A stretch of DNA of 64,000 nt from Patescibacteria group bacterium (GCA_036278915.1 DASUKB010000002.1:95162-159161), one strand, 5' to 3'; counted from the first letter of the stretch, positions 6,388 to 50,690 are shown. Notes: generated by a model from the letters alone, not told the origin. Numbers and translations are program-made.

Positions 6388-7557
6388 GTGCATCACAGCG
6401 TGAATGCCCTTACGGTCATCTATTTTATGGCACAAACAGCTACCAGTGTGGCTACTACAATGCAAGAGCTTTTGTCCCAAGAGGGAGTGGACATTAAAGT
6501 TCCCAAAGTCGGCGACGTTTTGGAAGGGAAAATTCTTTCCGTCGGGAAAAACGAGGTTTATATCGATATCGACGGGTTCGGGTTGGGCGTGGTGCGCGGG
6601 CGCGAGCTTTACGACGAAACCGTGAGACTCTCAACTCTTAAAGTCGGCGATATGGTGTTCGCCTCGGTTTTGGAACCGGAAAACAAAGAAGGCAATATTG
6701 AATTGTCGTTCCGCCAAGCCGGCCAGGAACGAGTCTGGCAAACGCTCTCTGACCGCATGCGTTCCCGTGAAGTCATCACGACCAAGATCCTAGACGCCAA
6801 CAAAGGCGGACTTATGGTCGAGGTCAACGGCGTTTTGGGATTCTTACCGGTATCACAACTCTCAAGCGAGCATTATCCGCGAGTGGAAGAAGGCGATAAA
6901 TCCAAAATTCTGGAAATCCTCAAAAGTTATGTTGGTTCCGAATTCGCAGTGCAGATTATTACCGCAGATGCCGAAGAGGAAAAACTGATCGTTTCGGAAA
7001 AAGCCGTAACCGAAGAGGAATTGCGCAGTAAAATTTCCAAACTCAAAATCGGCGACGTCGTGGAAGGCACGGTTTCGGGTATTGTTGACTTCGGCATCTT
7101 TATCAAATTTGGCGATGGACTCGAAGGCTTGGTCCACATTTCCGAACTGGCCTGGTCCCGCATCGAACATCCAAAAGATTTGTACAAAGTTGGTCAGAAA
7201 GTCCAAGCTCAGATTATTTCCGTAGATCGCGACCGAATCTCGCTCTCGGTCAAACGCCTGCAGCCAGACCCTTGGCTTGAATCCATCAAAAAGTACGAAG
7301 TTGGCCAAACCGTCACAGGGAAAGTTACGAAAGTTATGCAGTTTGGAGCGTTCGTGGAACTTGATCCGGATATCTATGGCCTGGTTCACTCTGTGGAGCT
7401 GTCCAATGACGAAGGGAAAAATCCATCGGACATAGTTTCAGTCGGACAGACGTTGGAATTTAAAATTATCTCCATCGAACCCCAGGAACACCGTCTCGGT
7501 CTCTCGCTGCGAGCCCTTACTTCCAAACCAGAAGAGAAAAAAGAAGAAGCCAAATAA
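6388..7557 (+). CDS. rpsA: 30S ribosomal protein S1 (short, four S1 domains)
   Basis: Repeated S1 OB-fold motifs (VGD.VEG.V..I..FG.FV); GTG start with a GAAGG SD; alternative starts at 6427 and 6460 are possible. Confidence 0.85.
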   Translation: MHHSVNALTVIYFMAQTATSVATTMQELLSQEGVDIKVPKVGDVLEGKILSVGKNEVYIDIDGFGLGVVRGRELYDETVRLSTLKVGDMVFASVLEPENKEGNIELSFRQAGQERVWQTLSDRMRSREVITTKILDANKGGLMVEVNGVLGFLPVSQLSSEHYPRVEEGDKSKILEILKSYVGSEFAVQIITADAEEEKLIVSEKAVTEEELRSKISKLKIGDVVEGTVSGIVDFGIFIKFGDGLEGLVHISELAWSRIEHPKDLYKVGQKVQAQIISVDRDRISLSVKRLQPDPWLESIKKYEVGQTVTGKVTKVMQFGAFVELDPDIYGLVHSVELSNDEGKNPSDIVSVGQTLEFKIISIEPQEHRLGLSLRALTSKPEEKKEEAK

Positions 7558-10436: not shown

Positions 10437-11663
10437 ATGGATTCTACGTCTGACACAAAAAATATTCAAACCGATTGCTGTATCGCTGGCGGCGGTCCGG
10501 CCGGCATTATGCTCGGCTTTTTACTGGTTCGAGCCGGAGTGGACGTCACTATTTTAGAAAAATGGCCGGATTTTTTTCGCGATTTCCGCGGCGATACCAT
10601 CCATCCTTCCACTATGGATATTTTAAATGAGCTGGGATTGTTGGATGAATTTTTGAAATTGCCGCACCAGGAAATCCCGCGTGTGGTCGCGGCCATTGGC
10701 GACCAGGAAATCACCATCGCGGATTTTGAGCACCTGCACGTGCGCTGTCCGTTTTTGGGATTTATGCCGCAATGGGACTTTTTGAACTTTATCGCAGAGT
10801 ATGGCCGCAAATTTTCCAACTTCCACCTGCTTATGGAAACCGAAGCCCTGGATTTAATTTATGAAAATGGCAAAGCCACAGGTTTAACCGCGCGCAATTC
10901 ATCGGGTACGTTTGATATCCGTGCCAAGCTTGTGGTGGGCGCAGACGGTCGGCACTCGGTGGTCCGTGAAAAATCCCATTTACCTAACCAAAGTTTGGGT
11001 GCGCCCATGGATGTGCTCTGGTTCCGCATCTCGCGCAAAAAATCCGACCCAGTGCCCGTGTTGGGAAGGCTTGAGCGCGGCGAGATGATGATTATGATTG
11101 ACCGCGATGACTATTGGCAGTGCGGGTTTATAATCCCCAAAGGAAATTTTGAGCAAACAAAACAGCAAGGTTTGGGTTCCCTGCATACCAGAATTTTGGA
11201 TCTGGCTCCGTTTTTGGAAAGCCGGTCTCAGGAAATTTCCGATTGGTCACAAGTCAAATTATTGAGCGTCGCCGTGGAGAGGCTTAGCCAGTGGTACCAG
11301 GACGGACTTATTTGCATTGGCGATGCCGCGCATGCCATGTCGCCTATCGGCGGCGTCGGCATTAATTTGGCCATTCAGGATGCGGTTGCCGCAGCTAATA
11401 TTCTCATCCCAGCTTTCCGGCGCGGTGGCCCGAAACTATCAGACTTGCAGGCTATCCAGAAACGTCGGCAACTGCCTACCAAAATTATCCAGCGCATGCA
11501 GATTTATATCCAAAACCATCTCATATACCACGTCGTGGCCGGCGACCTCAAACTTCAAGTCCCCTGGTTTCTTAAACTTTTATCTCGCTTCCCTGCGCTG
11601 CGTAGGATTCCGGCGCGCATGATCGGCGTAGGCTTCCGGCCTGAACACGTAACGCAAAAATAA
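10437..11663 (+). CDS. FAD-dependent monooxygenase/oxidoreductase (UbiH/aromatic hydroxylase-like)
   Basis: GGGPAG dinucleotide-binding motif at the N-terminus and GDAAH motif; start taken at MDSTSD. Confidence 0.7.
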   Translation: MDSTSDTKNIQTDCCIAGGGPAGIMLGFLLVRAGVDVTILEKWPDFFRDFRGDTIHPSTMDILNELGLLDEFLKLPHQEIPRVVAAIGDQEITIADFEHLHVRCPFLGFMPQWDFLNFIAEYGRKFSNFHLLMETEALDLIYENGKATGLTARNSSGTFDIRAKLVVGADGRHSVVREKSHLPNQSLGAPMDVLWFRISRKKSDPVPVLGRLERGEMMIMIDRDDYWQCGFIIPKGNFEQTKQQGLGSLHTRILDLAPFLESRSQEISDWSQVKLLSVAVERLSQWYQDGLICIGDAAHAMSPIGGVGINLAIQDAVAAANILIPAFRRGGPKLSDLQAIQKRRQLPTKIIQRMQIYIQNHLIYHVVAGDLKLQVPWFLKLLSRFPALRRIPARMIGVGFRPEHVTQK

Positions 11664-11690
11664 AACCCCGCAAGCTGCGGGGTTTTATTT
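11663..11690. terminator. Bidirectional rho-independent terminator
   Basis: AAAACCCCGCAAGCTGCGGGGTTTT palindrome between convergent genes. Confidence 0.8.
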
Positions 11691-12045
11691 AGGTCATAGT
11701 CTGCATTGTGCGGTTGGAGGTAAGCGCGCTGGTAAGTCCGAACACAGCGACGATGATTCCCAAAATGACACTGTTGGTCACCACCGCGGAAACGGCGCCA
11801 TGTCCCAAACTGAACGGCGCAATGATCATCCAAAGCCCAAGCAGGAAGTTAATCCATGAAGCCCAGGCCGAATTGGGGGTGCTCATACGGATGATCGCAA
11901 GGATTCCGATAATGATCCCTAAAATCACGGAGTTGGTCGCTGACACGCCCAATCCCGAGTAATTTAAAATAAACGGTGAAATGATCAGCCATATGCCCGC
12001 AAGCAGGTTAATGGTACTTGCGGTATTGGTTGTTGCTCTTGCCAT
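11689..12045 (-). CDS. SPW-repeat-like membrane protein (internal tandem duplication)
   Basis: Two ~40-aa repeats (INLLAGIWLIISPF... and INFLLGLWMIIAPF...) forming 4 TM helices; start taken at MARATT. Confidence 0.5.
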   Translation of the reverse strand: MARATTNTASTINLLAGIWLIISPFILNYSGLGVSATNSVILGIIIGILAIIRMSTPNSAWASWINFLLGLWMIIAPFSLGHGAVSAVVTNSVILGIIVAVFGLTSALTSNRTMQTMT

Positions 12046-12143
12046 AAATATCACCCCCTTCTGATACCAGTCTAAACGAATAGCCCTATTTCTCAAGTGG
12101 CAAATTGAACAGTTTTTCGGAACTTCCGAGCGGCTTTTTTGGT

Positions 12144-12932
12144 TCAGAATGTACGTGTCCGGCCGACTATCATTTTAACGGCGTTGGATTTAACTTCAAC
12201 CTGCAAAGGTGTCGTGCCAAATTCGATTCCTCCCGTGAGGATGGGCATATTTGCAGGCGCGGTAATTTCTAGGGATCTGAGATGTAATACAGTGGCTCCG
12301 GGAATATGTTCCAGCTGTCCGGATTGCAATTCGCCTCGGTGCCTAAACTCCTCCCAACGTGAAAGCCGAGGCACCAGCACAACATCGAGTAGGCCGTCCG
12401 TGGGTAACCCCAAACCCTCATGCGCCTGCGTTTGGCAGTTGACGATTGTGCCGCCGAGCACGTCTGATGATTGGACCCGTAATCCCGGGCTTTGGATTTG
12501 AACTTCAAAAGTCTCTCGGTTTGGGAGAAACCCAAATGACAGCTTCGTCAGGAAATTTTTTCCATTAGCCTTGGCCAAATCCAATTCCTCAACTCGGCGC
12601 AGGGCCAAAGCCTTGCACGCGCCGGCTACATCCGGCAGTCCTAAACCTTGGGCTAGTTCTGATTTTACCAGCGGAATGTAACCGACCGAAACCGGTCTTT
12701 CGCCGACAGAGTTTATAACGTCATCCAGTGTCCGGTCTGAACCGGCCGCGACTATGGTTTTGGCCTGATGAAAAAACGCGGTCTCAACCAGCTGTCGCAC
12801 GGTCCGGATGCCGGTGATCCGCACAATTTCACCGCTGATGTGGTAATCGGAAATACAAGAGTGCAGCTCGTGCTGCACTTTTTCGTATTGCCGCTGGCTT
12901 AATCCGCAAGAATCGACAATGTAATAGTACAT
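12144..12932 (-). CDS. Diacylglycerol/lipid kinase catalytic-domain family protein (YegS-like) with degenerate GGDGT motif
   Basis: VAAGSDRTLDDVINSV aligns to the GGDGT(V/L)NEVVNGL region of DAGK_cat proteins. Confidence 0.5.
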   Translation of the reverse strand: MYYYIVDSCGLSQRQYEKVQHELHSCISDYHISGEIVRITGIRTVRQLVETAFFHQAKTIVAAGSDRTLDDVINSVGERPVSVGYIPLVKSELAQGLGLPDVAGACKALALRRVEELDLAKANGKNFLTKLSFGFLPNRETFEVQIQSPGLRVQSSDVLGGTIVNCQTQAHEGLGLPTDGLLDVVLVPRLSRWEEFRHRGELQSGQLEHIPGATVLHLRSLEITAPANMPILTGGIEFGTTPLQVEVKSNAVKMIVGRTRTF

Positions 12933-12935
12933 GCT

Positions 12936-13304
12936 TCAAACATTAGAACCTTCTAATTTTTGGGCTTCATTTTTTGGTTCCCGCATCTGGCAGTTCCCTA
13001 CAAAATACCCGCCTTCGTGAATGACAATGCGGGTGCAAGTGATGTTGCCTAAAACTTTTCCGGTTTCAAATATCTCCAGAGAATTTTTGACAGTGACATT
13101 GCCTTTGACCACGCCGGCTATGTAGGCGCTTTGTGCCATTAAATCGGCTTCAACTTGCGCCGCAGGGCCGACGTGAATATTTTGCGCTGCTTGCACGCGT
13201 CCACTCACGGTACCATCCAGGCGCACCGTGCCGCTTGATTTCAGTTCGCCTTCCACGCGCATGCCTTGGGCGATGATTGTTTCTAAGGACTCGTTTTTAG
13301 CCAT
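12936..13304 (-). CDS. Bactofilin family polymer-forming cytoskeletal protein
   Basis: Beta-helical repeat pattern (VRLDGTVSGRV..., VKGNVTVKNSLEI..., ITCTRIVIHEGG) typical of the DUF583/bactofilin family. Confidence 0.75.
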   Translation of the reverse strand: MAKNESLETIIAQGMRVEGELKSSGTVRLDGTVSGRVQAAQNIHVGPAAQVEADLMAQSAYIAGVVKGNVTVKNSLEIFETGKVLGNITCTRIVIHEGGYFVGNCQMREPKNEAQKLEGSNV

Positions 13305-13800
13305 TGGCAGCCTCCGAGAGTGCTTTGGTTTCCTCGTCAGTCAGTTTGACGCGGGATTTGCCGGCTTGGATCTCTTTGGAATAGACGCGCGACTCTCCAC
13401 GGCTGTGGAGGACTGTAATCACAAACCCGTTGAGATGGTTGTTGAGCACGGCGAGCGAGAAACTTAAATTCCCCGCTTCCCCGAACTGCGAATACCGTAC
13501 GAATCCCATGCGCTGGAAATTTTTTTCGTTACTGGTTCGCAAAGATTCGGTCTGGTTATTGAGGTCAACCGCCGCCGCATTGAGTTTTTTTAATTCCTCG
13601 TCGTGCTCGGCCATTAAGAATTCTAAATTTCGCTTCATGCCTTGGGAATAAAAATGCCGGCGCACGGAATCAAGCTTTTGAATTCGGAAAAATTGCCAGA
13701 TGACCACTATCAGCAGCAGTAGGCTCAATCCTAAATTGGCGTACAATATATTTTCGGTTGTCATTAAGCACATTATAATGCTTTGGCCGGGCTTGGACAA
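13297..13800 (-). CDS. Membrane-anchored coiled-coil protein (possibly DUF4446-like); start ambiguous
   Basis: N-terminal TM helix plus coiled-coil segment; 8-nt overlap with the bactofilin gene suggests an operon. Confidence 0.4.
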   Translation of the reverse strand: MSKPGQSIIMCLMTTENILYANLGLSLLLLIVVIWQFFRIQKLDSVRRHFYSQGMKRNLEFLMAEHDEELKKLNAAAVDLNNQTESLRTSNEKNFQRMGFVRYSQFGEAGNLSFSLAVLNNHLNGFVITVLHSRGESRVYSKEIQAGKSRVKLTDEETKALSEAANG

Positions 13801-14030
13801 TCCCCGGCTTTTTGATATACTGACCGCACTTAAACCAATTCACATGCCCAAAAATATTTCTATATCCGCTGAATCTGACGCGCAGGAATATCGCCAGGTC
13901 CGCCGCGACCTGATATTTGTAATCGTCATGAACATTATATTCTTCGGCGTCTTGCTCGGACTATATTTCTATAATCGTTCCACCGGATCCGTGGATTCAT
14001 TCTTCTCCCACCTCCTGAAATTCTAAATCG

Positions 14031-14217
14031 GGGCCCGTAGTAAAGTGCTACACGGCATTCGCACTCGCCTGCCTTACTTGTGGCGGGGATATAGTAAAGT
14101 GGCATTACGCCGCATTCGCATTGCGGAGGCGAGAGTTCGATTCTCTCTATCTCCACCAGAAGTAAGGTCGGGGGCAGGTCGCAGAGGCGGGAGTTCGATT
14201 CTCCACGGGTCCACCAG
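14031..14217 (+). other. Composite tRNA-Ala locus: 5' fragment of an Ala-like tRNA (14031-14069), complementary arm, intact tRNA-Ala(CGC), complementary arm, 3' fragment with T-arm and CCA (14179-14217)
   Basis: Outer ends GGGCCCG...CGGGTCC-A-CCA can pair as an acceptor stem with G3:U70; arms CCTGCCTTACTT and AAGTAAGG..GGCAGG are complementary. Confidence 0.6.
14085..14158 (+). tRNA. tRNA-Ala (anticodon CGC), intact inner copy
   Basis: Acceptor GGGGATA/TATCTCC with G3:U70, anticodon loop TTCGCAT, T-arm GAGAGTTCGATTCTCTC, CCA encoded. Confidence 0.8.
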
Positions 14218-14221
14218 AAAA

Positions 14222-14326
14222 GCTCGGACATCAGTTTTTTTCGGACACGTCCCGCTTGGCGCGGGACTAAATGCTCGGCCATTGGAATGGCCTCGCAGTT
14301 GTCCTCAAAAAACTGCTGTCCTCGCT
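14222..14326. repeat. Left copy of a ~105-bp inverted repeat (IR-L) starting 5 nt after a tRNA CCA end
   Basis: Reverse complement matches 17440-17543 with ~3 mismatches; contains internal palindromes GTCCCGC-TTGGC-GCGGGAC and GGCCATT-GG-AATGGCC. Confidence 0.9.
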
Positions 14327-14349
14327 CAAAAAATTAGTTATCTGTTTTC

Positions 14350-14375
14350 AAAAAACCGCCAGAAGGCGGTTTTTA
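14350..14375. terminator. Bidirectional rho-independent terminator at the 3' end of the Mur ligase gene
   Basis: AAAAAACCGCC-AGAA-GGCGGTTTTT. Confidence 0.8.
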
Positions 14376-15701
14376 AGTTTGCACTAATTTATGTAATTCT
14401 TCGCGTACAATAGTTCGTTCGTCCCAGGGTATCGCACCGTTTTTCGTCATCATGGTCTGCTCTGCTCCTTTGCCTGCAATGATTAGGACATCCCCCGCTT
14501 TTGCCAGCGATAGGGCCTTGGCAATGCCGCCGCGGCGATCCGGATTGCGGAATAGTGTTTGCCCGATGATTTTGCCGTGCGCTACGGCCGCGTCTGCTAT
14601 TTCGTGAATTATATCCTGCGGATTATCATCGTAGGGGTCTTCGTTAGTGACCACAACGAGATCCGATTTTTTGGCGGCGGTTTCGCCCATTTGCGCTCGT
14701 TTGGCGCGGTCGCGTCCCCCGCCCTGGCCGCCGGTGACTAGGATAACGCGATTTGTCCCTGCAATTTTTCTGGCTGCATCAAGTACGGTGTTTAGGCTTA
14801 AATTTTCGTGAGCATAGTCCACGATCACCGTGAAATTCTGACCTTCGTCGATTTTTTCCATGCGACCAGGAATTATTTTTACATTGGAAATCCCTGTCCT
14901 GGTGGCATCTCCTTGAAGTTTAAGCGTTTCAGCCAAAGCCAAAGCTGGCAGCGCGTTGTAGACATTAAATTTTCCGAGCACCGAGAGATGCGCTGGTTTA
15001 TTTTTTACATCAAAATCCACACCCTCCGAGGTTTCCCGAATATTTTCCGCAACGATGTCCGCTTTTGGATTTAAGCCGTAAGTAATTTTCAAATCAGCTG
15101 GAAAATTGTAAAAGAATTCTTTGCGGGGATCGTCGTAATTTATAATACTCACCCGCTTTACGTACTTGCCATTCAGTTGTTTGGCGTTTTCCATGAGCGA
15201 TGCAAACAATTTGCCCTTGGTCTGTTTGTAATTGTCAAAACTTCCGCCGTGCGATTCCAAATGTTCGGGTGAAAGATTTGTAAACACCGCACAATCAAAG
15301 ATAATTCCCACGTGGCGGTACATCAGAATCCCCTCGCTCGTTACCTCAAGCACCGCGTGCGTACAGCCGGAGTGAACCATTTCCGAAAGCATCTTCTGCA
15401 GCCGGAACGGCCCGGGCATGGTCATATGCATATTATTGAGCAGTTCCCTGTCCCCTAACTTTAGATTTGCTGTGCCAATTTGTCCTGTTTTGAATCCGGC
15501 AGCCGTGAGTACGCTCCAAATGAAATTCGCAGATGACGTTTTACCTTTTGTGCCGGTAATCCCAATGACGTACATTTTCCTGGACGGATTGCCATACAGT
15601 ATGCAGGCCGCTCGCGCCAACAAATAATGGTAGGTCTGAAGCACAAACTTTGGCGTCAGCTTTCTGATGATTTTTTTTAATTTATGCAATGTGTTCATCA
15701 A
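14373..15701 (-). CDS. Mur ligase family protein (MurE-like)
   Basis: GITGTKGKTS P-loop of Mur ligases, DYAHE motif, C-terminal Mur ligase domain; lies inside the IR-bounded cassette. Confidence 0.7.
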   Translation of the reverse strand: MMNTLHKLKKIIRKLTPKFVLQTYHYLLARAACILYGNPSRKMYVIGITGTKGKTSSANFIWSVLTAAGFKTGQIGTANLKLGDRELLNNMHMTMPGPFRLQKMLSEMVHSGCTHAVLEVTSEGILMYRHVGIIFDCAVFTNLSPEHLESHGGSFDNYKQTKGKLFASLMENAKQLNGKYVKRVSIINYDDPRKEFFYNFPADLKITYGLNPKADIVAENIRETSEGVDFDVKNKPAHLSVLGKFNVYNALPALALAETLKLQGDATRTGISNVKIIPGRMEKIDEGQNFTVIVDYAHENLSLNTVLDAARKIAGTNRVILVTGGQGGGRDRAKRAQMGETAAKKSDLVVVTNEDPYDDNPQDIIHEIADAAVAHGKIIGQTLFRNPDRRGGIAKALSLAKAGDVLIIAGKGAEQTMMTKNGAIPWDERTIVREELHKLVQT

Positions 15702-16998
15702 AGTCGCGATATCCGGCTATAAGGCCCAAACTTAAGAAGAAAAGTAATTGTCCCTGCTGAATTGTAACAAGAAAATGGTCAAACAGCGACATAATCAGCA
15801 AACTGCCGCCTAAAATTAATAATGTGAAACGCAAAAGCGTCGGCGAAGAAGCTGCCAGCCGAACTGCAATGACAATCAAATAGCTTAAGAACAATATCAA
15901 TCCCAAAATTCCCATGCTGGCTGCAATGTAAATAAAAATATTATGCGGTGGCTGATAATCCCAAGGTTGCATGTTAAACTTGGTAACCATGGTTTGGATG
16001 TAATTGCCTAAACCTGTACCCCATGGGTGATTTCGTAAAATCTGTAATCCAATATTGTTGTAGGTCCCGCGATCTATATATGAATTCGTACTGGAGATAT
16101 TGGAAACTCGGCCAAATAGCAAGTTGTGCCAGGAGACAAGGATTATGAAACAAGAAATTACAGCAGAAGTTATTATTTGCACATAAATTCTCCATTTTGT
16201 CAAGGAAAAGTTATAAATTATATAAATTAGGGTTGTCAGAGCTGCAATTAGCCAAGACACTCGTGAAAAGCTTAGAAATATTCCCACGATAAGTAAAATG
16301 CTTCCAATCCCCAATAAAATACGGGTGTTTTGGTTTGTTTCACGTGAGACATACCAATATCCCATAATTAAACTCAAGCATAAAAATGCGCCGAATATAT
16401 TGGGATGGGGGAATGTACCGTAGGCTCGAATGACTTTACCACCCATAAAATCCAAAGTAGCTAATCCGCCTGTTCCCAAAGGAGCAATATATTCGCCTAA
16501 GAGACGCAATCCGATATCGTGTTGCATATGAAACTGGATTATTCCAAGTACAGCTTGAAAAATTCCAGATAGATACAATATGCCAGCTGTAATTCGGAAG
16601 AACATAAGATTTCGGAACGTACTGGCCACATAAAAGACCAGAAATATAAACTCAACCAGTTTAAATAAGCTATAAACTTCAAAAAAACTGTGTTGCACAT
16701 GCAACCAGCCAATTAATGATGTGAATATTAAGCCTAATGTAAGCCAAAAGATGGGATTACGTAAGTTTAACGTTGTTTTAAAAGTTTTTATGTTTTCCAC
16801 AAGAAACGCTACGAAACAGCAGATCAATAAAAGATCAGAAATATATAAGAAAATTGCCAAGTACGAAGAAAAATAGCCGTGAATGTAAGCTGATTCTGGT
16901 TGGTAGATTACACGCAGGTTAAAAGGAATGGTTATTAGAAAAGCCCAAAAAAATATCTGATTAATTTTTTGAGCTTTAATAATTGACAAAATAGACAT
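15682..16998 (-). CDS. O-antigen ligase/polymerase (Wzy_C/WaaL) family membrane protein
   Basis: ~11-12 predicted TM helices with a large periplasmic loop; markedly AT-rich (~33% GC) versus ~48% in surrounding genes. Confidence 0.55.
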   Translation of the reverse strand: MSILSIIKAQKINQIFFWAFLITIPFNLRVIYQPESAYIHGYFSSYLAIFLYISDLLLICCFVAFLVENIKTFKTTLNLRNPIFWLTLGLIFTSLIGWLHVQHSFFEVYSLFKLVEFIFLVFYVASTFRNLMFFRITAGILYLSGIFQAVLGIIQFHMQHDIGLRLLGEYIAPLGTGGLATLDFMGGKVIRAYGTFPHPNIFGAFLCLSLIMGYWYVSRETNQNTRILLGIGSILLIVGIFLSFSRVSWLIAALTTLIYIIYNFSLTKWRIYVQIITSAVISCFIILVSWHNLLFGRVSNISSTNSYIDRGTYNNIGLQILRNHPWGTGLGNYIQTMVTKFNMQPWDYQPPHNIFIYIAASMGILGLILFLSYLIVIAVRLAASSPTLLRFTLLILGGSLLIMSLFDHFLVTIQQGQLLFFLSLGLIAGYRDFDEHIA

Positions 16999-17095
16999 AT
17001 TTATGTTCTAATTTGAAAATTAATCATGAATGGTTGTGAATTTAAGATTTATGCTGTATTATAAGGTTCATTTCCATAGGAGGAGGTGATAAAAA

Positions 17096-17326
17096 GTGGG
17101 TAGTTTACGTCGTTGTACGGAGTTGAAAGACTTGGGTGCAATTTTGCTAAGCGAAAGTGTTGCAAGCAAGACCGAGACAGAACATCTTGCGGATCGGATC
17201 CGCGCCTGGATTGGTGAAGCTTCGGCTAATAGCTGTGCGCAAGCAGGACCGTTTGCAATTGCCATAAGGTCTCTAATGGTGGCATTGCGGCAGAAAGCTG
17301 AAGAGTTGTCCAAGCCGGAGGCGTGA
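17096..17326 (+). CDS. Small hypothetical protein (76 aa) with strong SD (AGGAGGTG), GTG start
   Basis: ORF preceded by AGGAGG 11 nt upstream; followed by a terminator at 17348-17388. Confidence 0.4.
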   Translation: MGSLRRCTELKDLGAILLSESVASKTETEHLADRIRAWIGEASANSCAQAGPFAIAIRSLMVALRQKAEELSKPEA

Positions 17327-17347
17327 TGTCCCACCACCAATTTCGGT

Positions 17348-17388
17348 AACGCCAGTGTTTTGTTTACAAGCACTGGCGTCTTTATTTT
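17348..17388 (+). terminator. Rho-independent terminator
   Basis: CGCCAGTG-loop-CACTGGCG followed by a T-rich tail. Confidence 0.7.
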
Positions 17389-17439
17389 GCCAACTTTTTA
17401 TTAGCGAGAGACAGATATTTTTGAGGATAAGATTCTTAA

Positions 17440-17543
17440 GCGAGGACAGCAGTTTTTTGAGGACAACTGCGAGGTCTTTCCAATGGCCGAGCATTTAGTC
17501 CCGCGGCAAGCGGGACGTGTCCGAAAAAAACTGATGTCCGAGC
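17440..17543. repeat. Right copy of the ~105-bp inverted repeat (IR-R)
   Basis: Reverse complement of 14222-14326; followed after 6 nt by a tRNA-Pro 3'-end fragment in inverted orientation. Confidence 0.9.
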
Positions 17544-17549
17544 GTTCTC

Positions 17550-17568
17550 TGGTCGGGGTGCTGGGAAT
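17550..17568 (-). repeat. 19-nt duplicate of the tRNA-Pro 3' end (TGGTCGGGGTGCTGGGAAT), direct repeat with 17697-17715
   Basis: Exact 19-nt match covering CCA, the acceptor 3' strand and part of the T-arm. Confidence 0.85.
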
Positions 17569-17696
17569 CTCATTCGCCGCTTATGCGGCTCTTCCAGGGC
17601 AACGTCAAAACGTTCACTGAACGTTTTGCCGACGTTCGGCTGCGGCTTAAGCCTTGCCTCACTTATGCCCGTTCAATTCCCAGAACATTGGATTTT

Positions 17697-17770
17697 TGGT
17701 CGGGGTGCTGGGAATTGAACCCAGTCTACACGAACCCGAATCGTGCGTACTACCGGTATACGACACCCCG
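17697..17770 (-). tRNA. tRNA-Pro (anticodon CGG)
   Basis: Reverse complement reads CGGGGTG...anticodon loop TTCGGGT...T-arm CTGGGTTCAATTCCCAG...CACCCCG-A-CCA. Confidence 0.8.
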
Positions 17771-17809
17771 TGGTCATCGCAGACATTATATTATTTTTTG
17801 ACACAAAAG

Positions 17810-17834
17810 AAAACCGCCTTATCAGCGGTTTTTT
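17810..17834 (-). terminator. Rho-independent terminator downstream of gene 17858..18367
   Basis: AAAACCGCC-TTATCA-GCGGTTTTTT. Confidence 0.75.
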
Positions 17835-17857
17835 GGACTCTGATTATTTACTGTTCA

Positions 17858-18367
17858 CTATTTACGAAGCAAATACCAAAGACAGGGGAGTACCGTGACT
17901 ACTTGAGTGGCAATCCCAAGTGGCCAGAACCGAGACATAGGGAAGTGGGCACGCCATGTTTCATGAATTGCCAAGTGGAGTGTGTGGAACTGTTTAAAAA
18001 GGGAGAATTGGTGCAGTTTTTTGGCCCAAAGCGGAAGATTGTCAACCAAATCTGGCAGATATCCGCCGCCTGCACCCCAGGCAAACATGGAGAAGAAATT
18101 AAAATTGTCCCGATAATGCCAAATTACTAACACAATTAAGAACGCAAGCAGGGAATCGGCAATAGCAAATGTGAGGAGGCCTTTGGACCATTGAATTTCT
18201 CCATCCGGAGATAATGGTGGATTAATCGGGCCGTCGAGATGGGGGAGAAGATCACAAACTAAATGGGATGCGATGCCTGTAGCCAGACCCAAAGCGGGAT
18301 TTTGTGAAACGGCACCCACGGCTACACCAACTGCGCCGCCGATAATAACATGAGAAGTGGCAATCAT
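17858..18367 (-). CDS. Membrane-bound metal-dependent hydrolase, YdjM/DUF457-like
   Basis: MIATSHVIIGGAVG...HLVCDLLPHLD His-rich N-terminus and 3-4 TM helices resemble the SOS-regulated YdjM family. Confidence 0.45.
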   Translation of the reverse strand: MIATSHVIIGGAVGVAVGAVSQNPALGLATGIASHLVCDLLPHLDGPINPPLSPDGEIQWSKGLLTFAIADSLLAFLIVLVIWHYRDNFNFFSMFAWGAGGGYLPDLVDNLPLWAKKLHQFSLFKQFHTLHLAIHETWRAHFPMSRFWPLGIATQVVTVLPCLWYLLRK

Positions 18368-18672
18368 ATAAAGTAAAAAGTTAGAAGTGAGAAGTTGAAA
18401 GTCTGCGGACCCAAGTATTATAAAGCATAAAAAAGAACCGCTCTCATCCGGAAGGACAAGTAGCGGTTCGAAATTGGTCAGGCTTGTGGCTGGAAGCGCT
18501 CACTGGCGTAAACGCCGGTGAGGACAAGGGCAGCCAACGGGCACAGGGATAAAAACTTGCTGTCCCAGCGCATGTACGGTGAAACGAGGACAACGACGGC
18601 AACCACTAAAGCTGGTTGCAGCAGCAGCCATGCGAAGCCGAGGGCCATGCGATGCGGTTTCACGGTGAGTTC

Positions 18673-18891
18673 CTACTTCTGGTAGAAACTCTTGCTGGCC
18701 CAGACCATGGCCGCAGCGACTACGACGAAGGCCGGGATCTTGATGGCCAGGCTGAGACCAGAGTGTCCCACCAGGTCGCAAATCCCTGACAGTTCGATGA
18801 GAACCAGGAACAGTAGGAGCAACTCTCCAAGTTGCACCAGTCGAGGCTGGATTGGGTGGGTTTCCGACAGGTTTTTTGCATGCTCCTCCAT
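18673..18891 (-). CDS. Small hypothetical membrane protein in the GC-rich patch (start uncertain)
   Basis: ORF with two hydrophobic helices; local GC ~58-60%. Confidence 0.25.
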   Translation of the reverse strand: MEEHAKNLSETHPIQPRLVQLGELLLLFLVLIELSGICDLVGHSGLSLAIKIPAFVVVAAAMVWASKSFYQK

Positions 18892-19046
18892 GTGACCCCT
18901 CCTTGAAACGAACTTATCAATTCTACACCTGCCTAATTGCTTCGTCAACAAAAAAAGAAACCCCGCACCAGTCCAGTCAGTTGACCGGACGGTACGGGGC
19001 AAGCCGCAGCGACGTTGTACATTTAAGTACGCATGCTGCGGTGTGT

Positions 19047-19760
19047 TCACGCCTGAGTGGGTGGGGTAAACGACACCAGGTGGTGTAGCGGATGGTGGGC
19101 GTAGCGAGCCGCAATCTCCCGGACCAGCCAGATTTTTGGATTGGCTGGTCCGGACTGGATCGATCTCGAATCAAATTCAGTCACGTTCTGCTCGGGCACG
19201 ATTGGAGAGATGCCCATCTTCCAAGCAATCGCGAGCGCGCGCACGAGCATGGCTTTGTGCGCGATGATCGCCGGCCTGCTGCACCCGCGCAACTTGGAAA
19301 TGCGGATGCATTCCTGCATGCCGTCGACGGTTGAGAAGTACGGTTTGTCCGCAGGCGGCCAGAAGGGAATGATCGGCGCGGTGGACTCTTCAATCCACTG
19401 CGGATCATCCTTGAGCATGGCCAGCGGGACCTCGAACTGGGCAATCATGGGGATGCCTGGTTTCCAGAAATCCAGGATGTTGGCAGCCACATGGGCCAAT
19501 GCCAGGTTTGGTCGGCCCGGATCGAGCCCCCGCGCATTGAGCAATTTCAATGCGTCCAGGTCGTTGCCTTTGGTCTTTTCACGGACCTTGGCAATTTCGG
19601 CGCCGAGTTCAGTGTCGGTGTAGGTGTTGCGACCGAACGCAAACACCCACAAGCAGTCTGCGTCCCGGATGTTGCCGAGACTCGGGCACGCGTTCTTCCA
19701 CGGTCGGAAGTAATCGTGCCGCACGCGTGCGACGGTTTCGGCGTCAATGGCTTGTGCCAC
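19047..19760 (-). CDS. Hypothetical protein (237 aa), GC-rich, no recognisable family
   Basis: Long ORF with composition distinct from the flanking housekeeping genes. Confidence 0.4.
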   Translation of the reverse strand: MAQAIDAETVARVRHDYFRPWKNACPSLGNIRDADCLWVFAFGRNTYTDTELGAEIAKVREKTKGNDLDALKLLNARGLDPGRPNLALAHVAANILDFWKPGIPMIAQFEVPLAMLKDDPQWIEESTAPIIPFWPPADKPYFSTVDGMQECIRISKLRGCSRPAIIAHKAMLVRALAIAWKMGISPIVPEQNVTEFDSRSIQSGPANPKIWLVREIAARYAHHPLHHLVSFTPPTQA

Positions 19761-19830
19761 TGTTTCCTCCTAAATTTTCAGAGAGCAGTCACACGATTGT
19801 GACTTCGCAGTTTAGCAGATTGAAGGCGAT

Positions 19831-19859
19831 TTGTCAATCATACGGATTTTCTGTAAAAT
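19831..19859 (+). promoter_or_regulatory. Sigma70-type promoter (TTGTCA-17-TAAAAT) upstream of the composite tRNA-Arg locus
   Basis: Consensus-like boxes with 17-nt spacer. Confidence 0.6.
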
Positions 19860-19882
19860 GAAGTTCGCAAGGTAAGTCTCGA

Positions 19883-20071
19883 GCCCTCGTAGCTCAATGG
19901 ATACCCGCCCGACTCGCCTGACGGTCTCGTAGCTCAATGGATAGAGCAGCGCCGTCCTAAGGCGTTGATGCCGGTTCGACTCCAGCCGAGGCCACCAGAG
20001 GAGTCAGGCGGGCGGGGAGCAGGCCCGATCCTTTGGGCAAGATGGGGGTTCGATTCCCTTTGAGGTCGCCA
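19883..20071 (+). other. Composite tRNA-Arg locus: outer Arg-like tRNA interrupted in its D-loop (after 19903) by arm + intact tRNA-Arg(CCT) + arm; the outer copy resumes at 20017
   Basis: 18-nt direct repeat CTCGTAGCTCAATGGATA (19886-19903 and 19926-19943); arms CCCGCCCGACTCGCCTGAC and GTCAGGCGGGCGGG are complementary; outer ends GCCCTCG / TGAGGTC-G-CCA pair at 6 of 7 positions. Confidence 0.6.
19923..19997 (+). tRNA. tRNA-Arg (anticodon CCT), inner copy
   Basis: Acceptor GGTCTCG/CGAGGCC, anticodon loop GTCCTAA, T-loop TTCGACT (one C-A mismatch in the T-stem), CCA encoded. Confidence 0.7.
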
Positions 20072-20102
20072 AAAAAGGTCGAAACCATAAAAATAAAATT
20101 AT

Positions 20103-20354
20103 ATGCATCTGCAAAACTACTTTGGCTCGTACGCCAATCCTTACAATATAAAGTTCCTCGGTCCGATTATCGCAATCGTGATTGTCTGGAGTTTTATATG
20201 GAAGGCTTTGGCTCTGTGGCGGGCCGCGCGCAATGGCGCAAAAGTTTGGTACATCGTGCTGCTGATTGTAAATACTCTGGGCATACTTGAAATTTTGTAT
20301 CTGTATGTCTTCAGCAAGCGAAAAGCCACTCTGCCGCCGCCAACGCAAATGTAA
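20103..20354 (+). CDS. Small two-TM membrane protein (83 aa), hypothetical
   Basis: ORF with two hydrophobic helices. Confidence 0.4.
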   Translation: MHLQNYFGSYANPYNIKFLGPIIAIVIVWSFIWKALALWRAARNGAKVWYIVLLIVNTLGILEILYLYVFSKRKATLPPPTQM

Positions 20355-20438
20355 TTTTTGGTAAAATCAAAATCGAGAATTAAATTGAACCAAACGGATT
20401 CAAACGGTTTTGATTTTCGGTCCGGTGTGCAAATTGCG

Positions 20439-20513
20439 GGCCCTTAGCTCATTTGGTAGAGCGCTTCCATGGCATGGAAGAGGTGACCGGTTCGAGCCCG
20501 GTAGGGTCCACCA
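20439..20513 (+). tRNA. tRNA-Ala (anticodon GGC)
   Basis: Acceptor GGGCCCT/AGGGTCC with G3:U70, anticodon loop ATGGCAT, T-arm ACCGGTTCGAGCCCGGT, CCA encoded. Confidence 0.85.
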
Positions 20514-36166: not shown

Positions 36167-36200
36167 ATGGCAGAAAGTTAAATCTTTCTGTTTTAATTTA

Positions 36201-36367
36201 AGCGGTAGAACAAATGTCTTACCCGCCCGACCGAACGACTTTATGGGCATGTAGCTCAGCGGTAGAGCAAATGTCTTATACACATTGGGTCCCTGGTTCG
36301 AATCCAGGCATGCCCACCATAATTTCAATCAATCGTTCGGTCGTTCGGAATCCTTCCTGGCCCACCA
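36201..36367 (+). other. Composite tRNA-Ile locus: 21-nt 5' fragment homologous to D-loop-to-anticodon of tRNA-Ile (36201-36221), arm CCCGCCCGACCGAACGAC, intact tRNA-Ile(TAT), arm GTCGTTCGGTCG..., 3' fragment TTCGGAATCCTTCCTGGCCCACCA
   Basis: AGCGGTAGAACAAATGTCTTA matches AGCGGTAGAGCAAATGTCTTA within the intact tRNA; arms are mutually complementary; the 5' arm begins CCCGCCCGAC, as at the Arg locus. Confidence 0.6.
36245..36319 (+). tRNA. tRNA-Ile (anticodon TAT)
   Basis: Acceptor GGGCATG/CATGCCC, anticodon loop CTTATAC, T-arm CCTGGTTCGAATCCAGG, CCA encoded. Confidence 0.75.
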
Positions 36368-36407
36368 ATAAACAAGTGTCAGTTCTGCAAACAAAATGTA
36401 CTTTGTG

Positions 36408-42997: not shown

Positions 42998-43083
42998 TTA
43001 ATTAATTTAATCAACAATTCAAAGGTCGAAGAAACAAAAGATCCGCCTACGCATAAAGCTTTGGCGGACAGGAAGGAATAAAT

Positions 43084-43470: not shown

Positions 43471-43471
43471 G

Positions 43472-50316: not shown

Positions 50317-50391
50317 GGACGGTTAGCTCAGTGGTAGAGCATCTCTTTGACGTAGAGAGGGTCGCTGGTTCGATCCCAGCACCGTCCACCA
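50317..50391 (+). tRNA. tRNA-Val (anticodon GAC)
   Basis: Acceptor GGACGGT/ACCGTCC, anticodon loop TTGACGT, T-arm GCTGGTTCGATCCCAGC, CCA encoded. Confidence 0.85.
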
Positions 50392-50447: not shown

Positions 50448-50500
50448 AAAGTCCTCTACCGTCCACCAGAAAACGCTCGGGCCAGAAAAATTTTTTCCCG
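50448..50500 (+). repeat. 12-nt duplicate of the tRNA-Val 3' end (ACCGTCCACCA) followed by GAAAACGCTCGGG...TTTTTTCCCGAACGC, a degenerate copy of the IR-L start
   Basis: Compare CCACCA-GAAAA-GCTCGGACATCAGTTTTTTTCGGACACG at 14212-14248. Confidence 0.6.
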
Positions 50501-50690
50501 AACGCAAAAATCTAGAATTTTTATACACCTTAAGGTGGATTTTTGCTCTATTGCAATTTCTGAGGAAATCACAAGGAGTCGGAAAAATTTTTCTGGTCCT
50601 CGCTTAGAATTAATTAAGAATTAGGGGCTCGGATCAGTTGGGAAAGGGTTCTTAACTGTTTCGTACTTCGAAATTCCAGAAAGAATTTCA

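What the first reader, a model, noticed from the sequence alone, without database searches (positions are those of the whole stretch)
14213..17568. 3.3-kb cassette bounded by ~105-bp near-perfect inverted repeats that abut inward-pointing tRNA 3' ends
IR-L (14222-14326) and IR-R (17440-17543) are reverse complements with only ~3 mismatches. Each contains two internal palindromes (GTCCCGC-TTGGC-GCGGGAC and GGCCATT-GG-AATGGCC). Both IRs are joined to a tRNA 3' terminus by the same linker: ...GGGTCCACCA-GAAAA-GCTCGG on the left, and on the right the inverse of CACCCCGACCA-GAGAAC-GCTCGG (a tRNA-Pro 3' fragment). The cargo is a Mur-ligase-like gene, a strongly AT-rich (~33% GC) O-antigen-ligase/polymerase-like membrane protein, and a 76-aa ORF with its own terminator. 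No recombinase or transposase is present. A third, degenerate copy of the trailer (CCACCA-GAAAA-CGCTCGGG...TTTTTTCCCGAACGC) follows a duplicated tRNA-Val 3' end at 50448-50500. This looks like a non-autonomous mobile or invertible cell-envelope cassette whose ends are defined by tRNA 3' termini. Alternatively it is a conserved structured tRNA-trailer element at convergent tRNA operons.
Basis: seen in the sequence. Interest (0 to 1): 0.75.

Follow-up and report, generated by a model that had tools for sequence, protein, structure and literature searches.

The report
Palindromic repeats behind tRNA genes
The supposed 3.3-kb mobile cassette is a conserved cell-wall gene block that lies between two copies of a small hairpin-forming repeat which, in this group of ultra-small bacteria, was found only just behind tRNA genes.

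Summary
The inverted repeat is real: 114 nt, 95% complementary, 3 mismatches in the 104-nt core. It is not the end of a cassette. The window comes from a Patescibacteria (CPR) genome close to Ca. Doudnabacteria. The "cargo" (small ORF, Wzy_C, MurE) is a core gene block found in the same order in eight related contigs. Seven of them keep its orientation to the DUF4446 block. All six that reach the other flank keep its orientation there.

Each arm is one copy of a roughly 105-135-nt palindromic element, called PE here. It has an invariant foot, AC-GC-TC-GG...CC-TC-GC-T, a co-varying outer stem and one or two inner hairpins. A scan of 1.1 Mb holding 138 tRNAs found eight distinct PEs. Every one starts 5-6 nt from a tRNA boundary. 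Seven follow a CCA end and one abuts a tRNA 5' end on the other strand. None lies anywhere else.

Filled and empty orthologous sites, serial insertions and 84-97%-identical copies behind different tRNAs point to a non-autonomous, site-specific mobile hairpin repeat. No mobilising enzyme was found.

The "tRNA 3' fragments" come from two other elements: a replacement tRNA-Ala inserted into the native gene, and a structured insert in the tRNA-Pro T-loop. Inversion by RecA remains possible but could not be tested.

The parts
14031..14063 (+). 5' half (positions 1-37) of the native, now disrupted tRNA-Ala(CGC) pseudogene
   Evidence: Joined to 14179-14216 it matches the native tRNA-Ala(CGC) of relative L004 at 67/74 positions, with the same GGGCCCG/CGGGTCC acceptor stem. 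It has a 3-nt deletion in the D arm.
14064..14178 (+). 'N' insert in the anticodon loop of the native gene: left arm 14064-14084, functional replacement tRNA-Ala(CGC) 14085-14158, right arm 14159-14178
   Evidence: ARAGORN and Rfam call the inner tRNA. It is 71/74 identical to the tRNA-Ala of L008 but only 62/74 to the native L004 type. The flanking arms are complementary (CCTTACTT/AAGTAAGG and CCTGCC/GGCAGG).
14179..14216 (+). 3' half of the native tRNA-Ala pseudogene, ending in CCA. This is the 'tRNA 3' terminus' of the finding.
   Evidence: Direct repeat D1 is 79% identical to the inner tRNA's 3' part. Alignment to L004 native.
14222..14326 (+). PE1 (IR-L): type-A palindromic element. Foot GC-TC-GG / CC-TC-GC-T, 27-nt outer stem, two inner hairpins. 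It follows a 5-nt linker GAAAA (14217-14221).
   Evidence: Absent from the orthologous tRNA-Ala trailer in L002, L004, L005 and L006.
14350..14373 (.). Bidirectional terminator-like hairpin at the end of murE (AAAAAACCGCCAGAAGGCGGTTTT)
   Evidence: Inverted repeat I6. The same hairpin lies between murE and tRNA-Ala in L005, which has no PE.
14373..15701 (-). murE (UDP-MurNAc-tripeptide synthetase), a core gene that overlaps the Wzy_C stop by 20 nt
   Evidence: Pfam Mur_ligase_M 1.6e-40 and Mur_ligase_C 1.1e-23. 5404 homologues; the nearest are 71-74% identical and labelled Ca. Doudnabacteria.
15682..16998 (-). Wzy_C / O-antigen-ligase-like membrane protein, always directly upstream of murE
   Evidence: Pfam Wzy_C 3.8e-16. 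The same gene pair occurs in L002, L004, L005, L006, L008, L092 and L093. Its GC is below the locus mean in all of them.
17096..17326 (+). 76-aa ORF, a weakly conserved orthologue of the 71-82-aa ORF found in the same place in relatives. Its terminator-like hairpin is at 17349-17379.
   Evidence: Alignment with the shared motif (R/Q)I(K/R)AW(I/L).
17439..17543 (-). PE2 (IR-R): type-A palindromic element, 97% identical to PE1. It follows a 6-nt linker GAGAAC (17544-17549).
17550..17568 (-). 19-nt duplicate of the tRNA-Pro 3' end, from the T-loop to CCA (ATTCCCAGCACCCCGACCA)
   Evidence: Direct repeat D6, 100% identical to 17697-17715.
17569..17696 (-). 'Element B': a structured insert. It has a 5' guide (17671-17686) that is the reverse complement of the tRNA-Pro T-arm, and a conserved multi-helix core.
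   Evidence: Inverted repeat I8. 79% identical over 108 nt to L004:18437-18542 behind tRNA-Gly. Homologues in L006 and L093. 11 of 29 pairs are compensatory in 4 sequences. No Rfam match.
17697..17770 (-). tRNA-Pro(CGG). The tRNA-Pro/B/PE2 module is inverted relative to all seven relatives.
   Evidence: Orientation in L002, L004, L005, L006, L008, L092 and L093.
50317..50391 (+). tRNA-Val(GAC), followed by a 66-nt insert and an 11-nt duplicate of its 3' end (50458-50468)
50475..50603 (+). PE3: third element. It has the same foot (GC-TC-GG...CC-TC-GC) and the same Y shape but an unrelated interior. It follows the linker GAAAAC and lies in front of rnc (50691-51374).

Best explanation
The two arms are two copies of a small palindromic repeat, called PE here. 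PE belongs to a lineage-restricted family in Doudnabacteria-like Patescibacteria. Its left end always lies 5-6 bp from a tRNA gene boundary, normally just after the encoded CCA. The copies are inverted only because tRNA-Ala and tRNA-Pro converge on the block between them. That block (small ORF, Wzy_C, MurE) is ancestral housekeeping DNA, not cargo.

Shown: the anatomy of PE, its exclusive tRNA linkage, filled versus empty orthologous sites, stacked old copies, and near-identical copies behind different tRNAs.

Inferred: PE is a non-autonomous, site-specific mobile hairpin element. It is probably copied or inserted as a folded hairpin or cruciform. A trans-acting, still unidentified enzyme probably recognises its invariant foot. 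On the tRNA strand the foot is a 2-bp GC clamp plus a TC/TC internal loop; on the other strand the loop is a tandem G.A (CGAG/CGAG). The tRNA trailer is a safe site, because tRNA processing removes the insert from the transcript. PE1 behind tRNA-Ala is a recent copy of the older PE behind tRNA-Pro.
For: (1) Synteny. The order small ORF / Wzy_C / MurE ... 60-aa ORF / DUF4446 / bactofilin / DAGK recurs in L002, L005, L006, L007, L008, L092 and L093 with the window's relative orientations. L004 has the DUF4446 block inverted but shares the other flank. MurE is the ordinary CPR MurE.

(2) tRNA linkage. An unbiased scan for the foot plus a palindrome covered 1.10 Mb, 95 sources and 138 tRNAs. It returned 8 distinct elements, each beginning 5-6 nt from a tRNA boundary or the CCA of a tRNA fragment, and nothing else. 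blastn with all PEs found no fragments away from tRNAs.

(3) Filled versus empty sites. tRNA-Phe and tRNA-Gly abut in the window and L002 but are separated by a PE in L004. tRNA-Cys and tRNA-Leu(UAA) are 4 nt apart in the window and L005 but hold a reversed PE in L006. L005 has tRNA-Ala, terminator and murE without PE1.

(4) Turnover at one site. tRNA-Pro carries type A in the window, type C in L004, type D in L005 and L006, and no PE in L008, L092 and L093. L005 has, in order behind the CCA, an intact type D, the 3' 40 nt of a type A, and a decayed type-D interior.

(5) One subfamily at unrelated tRNAs. Type-C interiors are 84-89% identical between L004-Pro, L004-Phe and L006-Cys/Leu. PE1 and PE2 are 97% identical, and the similarity ends at the element borders.

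(6) Structure. The foot is invariant in 8 of 8 copies. In the basal helix 7 of 11 pairs change on both sides, and 89.5% of cells are paired against 69.9% in shuffles and 33-51% in slid registers.

(7) Two PEs lie inside co-oriented tRNA clusters, which argues against a terminator role.
Against: No transposase, recombinase, HUH, GIY-YIG or HNH gene was found among 59 window ORFs, so the mobilising activity is entirely inferred. Copy number is low: 3 copies in 64 kb and at most 2 per related locus. No variable target-site duplication can be defined, because the flanking CTCG direct repeat is identical in all copies. Insertions in L004 and L006 come with 19-27 extra nt, so the empty and filled sites are not clean. 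Conserved pairing, fixed spacing from CCA and a 7-of-8 orientation bias would also fit a functional co-transcribed RNA module spread by gene conversion. Only about 185 kb of closely related sequence could be examined.
Confidence: 0.62

Rival explanations
1. One reading: the 3.3-kb segment is a composite, non-autonomous mobile cassette, or a programmed invertible segment, whose ends are the two inverted repeats.
For: There are 114-nt arms at 95% identity, 3.1 kb apart. Perfect runs of 37, 28 and 36 nt, read, are long enough for RecA, and recA is present at 33297-34325. Short-read contigs break inside the arms, so the orientation is not independently fixed by those contigs.
Against: The cargo is a core, syntenic block present in all eight related contigs, none of which has flanking PE pairs. 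It lies in the same orientation as in the relatives on both flanks. murE is a single-copy cell-wall gene. The low GC of Wzy_C is a property of the gene in every relative. No invertase or transposase is present. PE occurs singly elsewhere.
Confidence: 0.07
2. PE is a functional RNA module of tRNA transcripts. It could be a 3'-processing or RNase III site, an insulator, or a bidirectional terminator. It would be inherited vertically and homogenised by gene conversion rather than being mobile.
For: Spacing is fixed at 5-6 nt after CCA, and 7 of 8 copies are co-oriented with the tRNA. The Y-shaped fold is conserved, with compensatory changes. PE1 and PE2 lie between convergent genes. PE3 lies in the 5' region of rnc, which encodes RNase III. 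The long A/U-rich outer stem would be an RNase III substrate; this last point rests on general knowledge and is an inference.
Against: Only 8 of about 70 tRNAs in the close set carry a PE, and orthologous tRNAs differ in presence and subfamily. One copy is reversed. In the tRNA direction no U-run follows the hairpin. Two copies split tRNA pairs that are otherwise contiguous and co-oriented. G.U pairs are rare and show no strand bias, 9 against 10 of about 340 pairs. The strand antisense to the tRNA folds better in 8 of 8 copies. Stacked decayed copies occur in L005. There is no Rfam family.
Confidence: 0.22
3. The repeats are attachment-site relics of a tRNA-integrating genomic island (attL/attR), or an assembly artefact.
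For: Duplicated tRNA 3' ends next to both arms resemble att duplications.
Against: The two duplicated ends belong to different tRNAs (Ala and Pro) and are inverted, not direct. The duplications are explained by the N insert and by element B, which recur at other tRNAs without any island. No integrase is present. Independent contigs reproduce all junctions at 100% identity.
Confidence: 0.03

Closest known systems
Bacterial MITE-like palindromic repeats (Correia/NEMIS of Neisseria, ERIC/IRU of enterobacteria, RUP of Streptococcus pneumoniae, Rickettsia palindromic elements); comparison from general knowledge
   Same: Size is about 100-150 bp. They are long imperfect palindromes, or have terminal inverted repeats. 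They encode no protein, sit in intergenic DNA, form subfamilies, are present or absent between relatives, and sometimes nest into one another.
   Different: PE has strict site specificity: 5-6 bp from a tRNA boundary in 8 of 8 copies. It has an invariant non-palindromic foot (TC/TC loop). The arms co-vary instead of keeping a fixed transposase-binding sequence. Copy number is low. There is no variable target duplication and no related IS.
REP/BIME elements mobilised by RAYT (Y1/HUH) transposases; GTAG- and CGTC-tagged palindromes (PMC3733652, PMC2817692: abstracts as listed)
   Same: They are hairpin-forming extragenic repeats with a short conserved tag at the foot and variable, compensating stems. 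A structure-specific single-strand enzyme is the presumed mobiliser.
   Different: REPs are 20-40 bp, occur in more than 100 copies and carry GTAG or CGTC at one end. PE is 104-134 nt and branched, its foot is ACGCTCGG/CCTCGCT, it has few copies and it is tRNA-linked. No RAYT was seen.
Integron attC sites (general knowledge)
   Same: They are imperfect palindromes of 57-141 bp with conserved ends, a variable and sometimes branched centre, and unpaired bases that mark one strand.
   Different: The attC cores R''/R' (RYYYAAC/GTTRRRY) are absent. There is no IntI and no cassette array, and PE is tied to tRNA ends.
tRNA-gene-targeting integrative elements and Tn7-like/CAST transposons that insert downstream of tRNA genes (general knowledge)
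   Same: They use the tRNA 3' region as a safe, conserved landing site at a fixed distance.
   Different: Those are elements of several to many kb with integrase or transposase genes and with direct att repeats or Tn7 ends. PE is about 105 bp and has none of these.
Rho-independent terminators behind tRNA genes
   Same: Both are stable hairpins right after the tRNA. Ordinary terminators occupy the same position behind tRNA-Gly and tRNA-Ala(GGC) in this window.
   Different: PE is branched and four to five times longer. No T-run follows it in the tRNA direction, and it can sit between contiguous, co-oriented tRNAs.

Membership tests
MITE (miniature inverted-repeat transposable element) | Small (about 50-500 bp), non-coding | tested here: met
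   104-134 nt with no ORF.
MITE (miniature inverted-repeat transposable element) | Terminal inverted repeats | tested here: met
   Outer arms are 81-100% complementary. However, the arm sequences differ between copies and co-vary.
MITE (miniature inverted-repeat transposable element) | Target-site duplication that differs from copy to copy | tested here: inconclusive
   All copies are flanked by the same direct CTCG (ACG-CTCG-[palindrome]-CTCG-CT). This looks like part of the element, and empty sites in relatives lack ACGCTCGCT.
MITE (miniature inverted-repeat transposable element) | Multiple dispersed copies in one genome | tested here: inconclusive
   Three copies in 64 kb: two type A and one other subfamily. 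The whole genome was not available.
MITE (miniature inverted-repeat transposable element) | A parent IS or transposase sharing the ends | tested here: not met
   None among 59 window ORFs or in the related loci. The rest of the genome could not be searched.
REP / RAYT system | 20-40-bp palindrome with a GTAG or CGTC tag at one end | tested here: not met
   PE is 104-134 nt with the foot ACGCTCGG...CCTCGCT. The family definition is taken from the PMC3733652 abstract listed.
REP / RAYT system | High copy number and a RAYT (Y1 transposase) gene in the genome | not testable with these tools
   Only 64 kb of the genome is available. No Y1_Tnp hit occurs in it.
Integron attC | R''/R' core sites RYYYAAC ... 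GTTRRRY and an adjacent intI or cassette array | tested here: not met
   The ends are GCTCGG/CCTCGC and there is no integrase.
Intrinsic (rho-independent) terminator | GC-rich hairpin followed directly by a U-run on the transcribed strand | tested here: not met
   The scan lists hairpins at 17349-17379 and 17832-17810 but not the PEs. PE1 is followed by CAAAAAA and PE2 by TTAAGAA.
Composite transposon or invertible (invertase-controlled) segment | Cargo variable between relatives, and a recombinase gene or recombinase sites | tested here: not met
   The cargo is syntenic in eight related contigs, and no recombinase is present.
Composite transposon or invertible (invertase-controlled) segment | Both orientations present in the population | not testable with these tools
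Logan contigs stop inside the arms.
Any described RNA family (Rfam 15) | Covariance-model match | tested here: not met
   Only tRNAs reach the gathering score. Nothing credible appears at E<=5 over 13900-17900.

The most novel reading that the evidence does not exclude
PE, element B and the tRNA-replacing N inserts may be three faces of one lineage-specific system of protein-less hairpin or guide elements that home to tRNA genes. PE lands 5-6 bp behind the CCA. B lands in the T-loop and carries an RNA guide complementary to the ligated T-loop junction. N lands in the anticodon or D loop and brings a replacement tRNA of the same anticodon. All would be mobilised by an unknown structure- or RNA-guided activity. 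The conserved PE foot (tandem G.A / TC-TC loop) would be its recognition or cleavage site.
Probability: 0.15. Interest if true: 0.85.

Novelty: new variant of a known kind. Interest (0 to 1): 0.45.

Why it matters
The practical result is negative. This is not a mobile or switchable cell-envelope cassette, and the murE-Wzy_C pair should be annotated as core genes.

The positive result is a small repeat family, not found in Rfam 15 or in the held papers, with unusually strict targeting of tRNA gene ends in genome-reduced Patescibacteria. If it is mobile, its conserved asymmetric foot offers a handle for finding the enzyme that moves it. That enzyme could be a new structure-specific nuclease or recombinase.

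These repeats, together with the B and N inserts, also break short-read assemblies at tRNA genes. They create tRNA pseudogene halves that can mislead tRNA counts and genomic-island predictions in CPR genomes.

Tried and rejected
1. An exact-protein look-up of the 442-aa MurE found nothing. The recorded gene call is the 400-aa version.
2. The GTDB-representative scan with a type-A arm pattern found only the L005 contig. The source species is not in that collection, so genome-wide copy counting failed.
In hindsight a PE pattern would have been more informative.
4. Viral-contig scans with type A and type C patterns gave 0 hits. The element-B core gave three chance hits inside ORFs. The PE foot pattern gave one chance hit and one unrelated GC-rich contig.
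5. Phage and plasmid BLAST found nothing relevant.
6. Rfam at gathering score and at E<=5 found only tRNAs.
7. Pfam on 59 ORFs to look for a transposase, integrase or homing endonuclease found none. tblastn with the GIY-YIG and LAGLIDADG ORFs of relatives found no hit in the window.
8. A G.U strand-bias test meant to separate RNA-level from DNA-level selection was uninformative: 9 against 10.
9. The idea that Wzy_C was horizontally acquired because of its low GC was rejected.
10. The att-relic idea was rejected because the duplicated ends belong to different tRNAs and are explained by the N and B inserts.
11. Literature searches for tRNA-linked palindromic elements or disrupted tRNAs in Patescibacteria found nothing on this. 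The paper on group I introns in Patescibacteria tRNAs (PMC13011429, abstract and outline read) concerns anticodon-loop group I introns.

Full report
**Observation**

The inverted repeat exists as described. The repeat finder gives arms 14219-14332 and 17433-17546: 114 nt, 95% complementary, 3100 nt apart. The 104-nt cores (14222-14325 plus strand, 17440-17543 minus strand) differ at three positions, 14259, 14288 and 14290. A pattern built from the ends matches only these two places, against 0.00 expected in shuffles.

Each arm is itself a quasi-palindrome. A 27-nt outer stem (81-86% self-complementary) encloses two small hairpins. The fold is Y-shaped, with z-scores of -3.5 to -7.9 on either strand.

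Three Logan contigs from run SRR25158533 are 100% identical to window 11001-14251, 14297-17468 and 17514-20482. They end about 30 nt inside the arms, which is what a k=31 assembler does at a repeat. The repeat is therefore genuine. Those contigs say nothing about the orientation of the middle segment.

**What the organism and the "cargo" are**

The MurE homologues closest to the window protein (71-74% identity) carry Ca. Doudnabacteria or Patescibacteria labels. The protein has thousands of CPR homologues annotated as UDP-MurNAc-tripeptide synthetase.

I fetched the MurE neighbourhood from relatives: L002/L003, L004 (GCA_019659055.1), L005 (GCA_964580495.1), L006/L007 (GCA_016307145.1), L008, L092 and L093/L094. 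In every one a 71-84-aa ORF, Wzy_C and murE lie together. Wzy_C and murE overlap by a few bases where the genes were called that way. A 60-aa ORF, DUF4446, bactofilin and a DAGK-like gene follow on the murE side.

The relative orientations equal those of the window in seven of eight contigs. L004 has the DUF4446 block inverted, but on the other flank it keeps the window's orientation of the block relative to tRNA-Arg/Ala/Ser. The 60-aa ORF just upstream of tRNA-Ala (window 13847-14026) is highly conserved, and the 76-aa ORF is weakly conserved. Wzy_C has a lower GC than its surroundings in every relative, 0.34-0.42.

The 3.3-kb segment is therefore an ancestral core block in its ancestral orientation. 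It is not mobile cargo.

**What the repeat is**

The same kind of element appears in the relatives. I call it PE.

Reading the DNA behind every tRNA and then scanning all 1.10 Mb of fetched sequence (95 sources, 138 tRNAs) gave eight distinct elements and nothing else. The scan looked for GCTCG...CTCGC enclosing complementary arms. The eight are:

- PE1, PE2 and PE3 in the window
- one behind tRNA-Pro and one behind tRNA-Phe in L004
- one behind tRNA-Pro in L005
- one behind tRNA-Pro in L006
- one between tRNA-Cys and tRNA-Leu(UAA) in L006

All read (A)C-GC-TC-GG[stem ... stem]CC-TC-GC-T. The GCTCGG starts 5-6 nt after the CCA in seven copies. In the eighth, which is reversed, it starts 5 nt from the 5' end of tRNA-Leu on the other strand.

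The foot is a 2-bp GC clamp, an invariant TC/TC internal loop, then GG/CC. It is identical in all eight copies. Beyond it the helix changes sequence but stays paired. Seven of 11 pairs change on both sides. Paired cells are 89.5%, against 69.9% in shuffles and 33-51% in slid registers.

The same GCTCGG...CCTCGC motif recurs inside some elements. Examples are window 14274-14297 and hairpin 2 of the L004-Phe copy.

There are at least four subfamilies: A in the window, the PE3 type, C in L004 and L006, and D in L005 and L006. None of the 80 more distant CPR loci (MurE identity 54% or less) has a PE. Rfam has no matching family.

**Mobile or fixed?**

Several comparisons show gain and loss.

- tRNA-Phe and tRNA-Gly abut in the window and in L002. 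In L004 a PE separates them.
- tRNA-Cys and tRNA-Leu(UAA) are 4 nt apart in the window and in L005. In L006 a reversed PE separates them.
- L005 has the same tRNA-Ala / shared terminator / murE arrangement as the window, but without PE1.
- The native tRNA-Ala of L002 and L004 is followed by a gene or by a simple terminator.

tRNA-Pro carries type A in the window, type C in L004, type D in L005 and L006, and no PE in L008, L092 and L093. In L005 the DNA behind tRNA-Pro holds, in order, an intact type D, the last 40 nt of a type A (84-90% identical to the window's PE) and a decayed type-D interior. These look like successive insertions at one point, with the newest next to the CCA.

Type-C interiors are 84-89% identical at three different tRNAs in two genomes. 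PE1 and PE2 are 97% identical, and the similarity ends at the element borders.

I conclude that PE is copied to new tRNA ends as a discrete unit. PE1 is a recent copy of the older PE at tRNA-Pro.

No enzyme that could do this was found. Fifty-nine window ORFs gave only housekeeping Pfam families: TyrRS, RuvC, YebC, S1, RNase HII, RecA, LexA, RNase III, TrmD and others. The GIY-YIG and LAGLIDADG ORFs seen near tRNAs in relatives have no counterpart in the window. The mechanism is therefore inferred: a folded hairpin or cruciform whose conserved asymmetric foot is recognised in trans.

Three observations weigh against a purely RNA-level role. G.U pairs are rare and unbiased between strands (9 against 10 of about 340). 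The strand antisense to the tRNA folds slightly better in 8 of 8 copies. Two copies split contiguous, co-oriented tRNA pairs. They do not exclude such a role.

**Why the arms abut "tRNA 3' fragments"**

On the left, 14031-14063 plus 14179-14216 are the two halves of the native tRNA-Ala(CGC). They match the L004 gene at 67/74 positions and have the same acceptor stem. A 115-nt insert splits them after position 37 of the anticodon loop. That insert consists of a complete, different tRNA-Ala(CGC) between complementary arms. The inner tRNA is 71/74 identical to the L008 allele. PE1 follows the CCA of the old gene.

On the right, tRNA-Pro is followed by a 128-nt structured insert, element B, and then by a 19-nt copy of the tRNA from the T-loop to CCA. 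PE2 follows that old CCA.

Both kinds of insert recur at other tRNAs here and in relatives (see the items noticed in passing).

The tRNA-Pro module (tRNA, B, PE2) is inverted in the window relative to all seven relatives, where tRNA-Pro points away from the Wzy_C-murE block. This local inversion, plus the new PE1, created the present inverted-repeat configuration.

**Can the segment invert?**

The arms have perfect runs of 37, 28 and 36 nt, and recA is present. Occasional homologous inversion is therefore plausible. There is no invertase, and the observed orientation is the ancestral one. Reads could not be examined. I leave this as untested and unlikely to be programmed.

**Comparison with known systems**

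PE works most like a MITE or REP-type palindromic repeat. It fails several membership tests:

- there is no variable target duplication and no parent IS
- the arms co-vary rather than being conserved
- it lacks the REP tags GTAG/CGTC and the 20-40-bp size (PMC3733652, abstract listed)
- it lacks the attC cores
- no U-run follows it in the tRNA direction

What sets it apart is the exclusive placement 5-6 bp from tRNA gene boundaries and the invariant TC/TC (tandem G.A) foot. I rate it a new variant of a known kind.

**Verdict**

- Observation: confirmed.
- Cassette interpretation: not supported.
- Trailer-element alternative: largely right, but best refined to a site-specific mobile repeat (confidence about 0.6).
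- Interest: moderate. It is raised mainly by the company PE keeps, namely the guide-bearing B element and the tRNA-replacing N inserts. These deserve their own study.

Noticed in passing
window 14031-14216; 19880-20075 (tRNA-Arg CCT 19923-19997); 36200-36370 (tRNA-Ile TAT 36245-36319). Also L004 tRNA-Cys, L005 tRNA-Arg and tRNA-Ala(cgc), L006/L007 tRNA-Ala(cgc), L008 tRNA-Ala(cgc), L092 tRNA-Ala(cgc), L093 tRNA-Pro, tRNA-Ala(cgc) (multiply nested) and tRNA-Leu(taa): 'N' inserts. A complete tRNA, flanked by GC-rich inverted arms (often CCCGCCCGAC ... GTCGGGCGGG), lies inside a decayed copy of a tRNA with the same anticodon. The split is in the anticodon loop (Ala after position 37, Ile 35/36) or in the D-loop (Arg). 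The outer halves match the native allele of relatives and the inner tRNA matches another lineage's allele. Stems of at least 8 bp flank 9 of 70 tRNAs in the close set against 1 of 56 in distant CPR loci. They look like selfish tRNA-replacement cassettes. I found no description of them in the held literature.
   Followed up: partly
window 17569-17696 (minus strand); L004 ~18390-18560; L006 ~15255-15412 (minus); L093 ~16210-16354 (minus); short form in L008 behind tRNA-Arg (6750-6839, minus); variant behind tRNA-Leu(taa) in L005: 'Element B', an insert of about 110-130 nt behind a tRNA. Its 5' end is the exact reverse complement of that tRNA's T-loop/T-stem (CTGGGAATTGAAC for Pro, GGAATCGAAC for Gly and Arg, GGAGTCGAAC for Leu). 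It has a conserved core, GGGCAGAAGYGAG..., and several co-varying helices: 11 of 29 pairs are compensatory in 4 sequences. It usually ends in G and is followed by a duplicate of the tRNA from the T-loop to CCA. The guide resembles the P1/P10 internal guide of group I introns, but the element is far too small for one. No Rfam match.
   Followed up: partly
window 17439-17770 compared with L002, L004, L005, L006, L008, L092, L093: The tRNA-Pro / element B / PE2 module is inverted in the window relative to all seven relatives. The flanking genes (the 169-aa ORF with its terminator, and the 76-aa ORF) keep their orientation. The breakpoints lie at the tRNA 5' end and at the distal end of PE2.
   Followed up: partly
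L002 and L003, position 1 (>=10 Logan contigs): Contigs of a 74%-identical relative from many samples all break in the T-loop of tRNA-Pro (...GGGTTC|). This is consistent with a duplicated tRNA-Pro 3' end, as in element B, in that genome too.
   Followed up: no
L004 7928-8182 and 17845-18090; L006 6010-6231; L093 16970-17614: Small free-standing GIY-YIG ORFs (73-84 aa) and a LAGLIDADG ORF lie directly next to tRNA genes in relatives. In L004 both PE-bearing tRNAs have a GIY-YIG ORF just upstream. There is no homologue in the window.
   Followed up: partly
L005 5810-5925 (minus strand), behind tRNA-Ala(GGC): The ordinary terminator hairpin behind tRNA-Ala(GGC) is interrupted by an ~80-nt insert with two hairpins (TGTCCGAC-TTT-GTCGGACA and TCTCCCGC-TTT-GCGGGCGAGA). 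It may be another small hairpin element family.
   Followed up: no
L093 ~7190-7240 and ~13600-13650 (minus strand): A ~35-nt hairpin, CCCGTAGTGA(A/T)GC...GC(T/A)TCTACTAT(T/C)GGG, is inserted in the decayed outer tRNA-Pro and tRNA-Ala copies. This is a third small insert type without tRNA cargo.
   Followed up: no
window 50392-50457: Between tRNA-Val(GAC) and the 11-nt duplicate of its 3' end lies a 66-nt insert containing GAGGCGGATCCGCCTCAGGCGGA. It resembles the variant insert behind tRNA-Leu(taa) in L005 (GGAATCCGCCAGCAGGCGGATGAGGCGG).
   Followed up: no
window 50475-50603 and 50691-51374: PE3, with a ~19-bp A/U-rich outer stem, lies in the 5' region of rnc (RNase III). This could be coincidence, or it could be a substrate for autoregulatory cleavage.
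   Followed up: no
window 41647-43855: Five tandem small genes with the T4SS_pilin (PF18895) domain lie behind a solute-binding protein gene.
   Followed up: no
window 31211-32242: An ORF combines an N-terminal RhuM-family domain with a C-terminal Fic/DOC domain.
   Followed up: no
L099 4420-4600 (IMGVR_UViG_3300037851_000296): A GC-rich phage-like contig has ACGCTCGGGCAC ... GTGCCCTCGCT enclosing two strong hairpins. Further TGCCCTCGCT and CGCTCGGGC half-sites lie 10-12 nt away on either side. It is not near a tRNA. The hit number is at chance level for the pattern, but the clustered half-sites are odd.
   Followed up: partly
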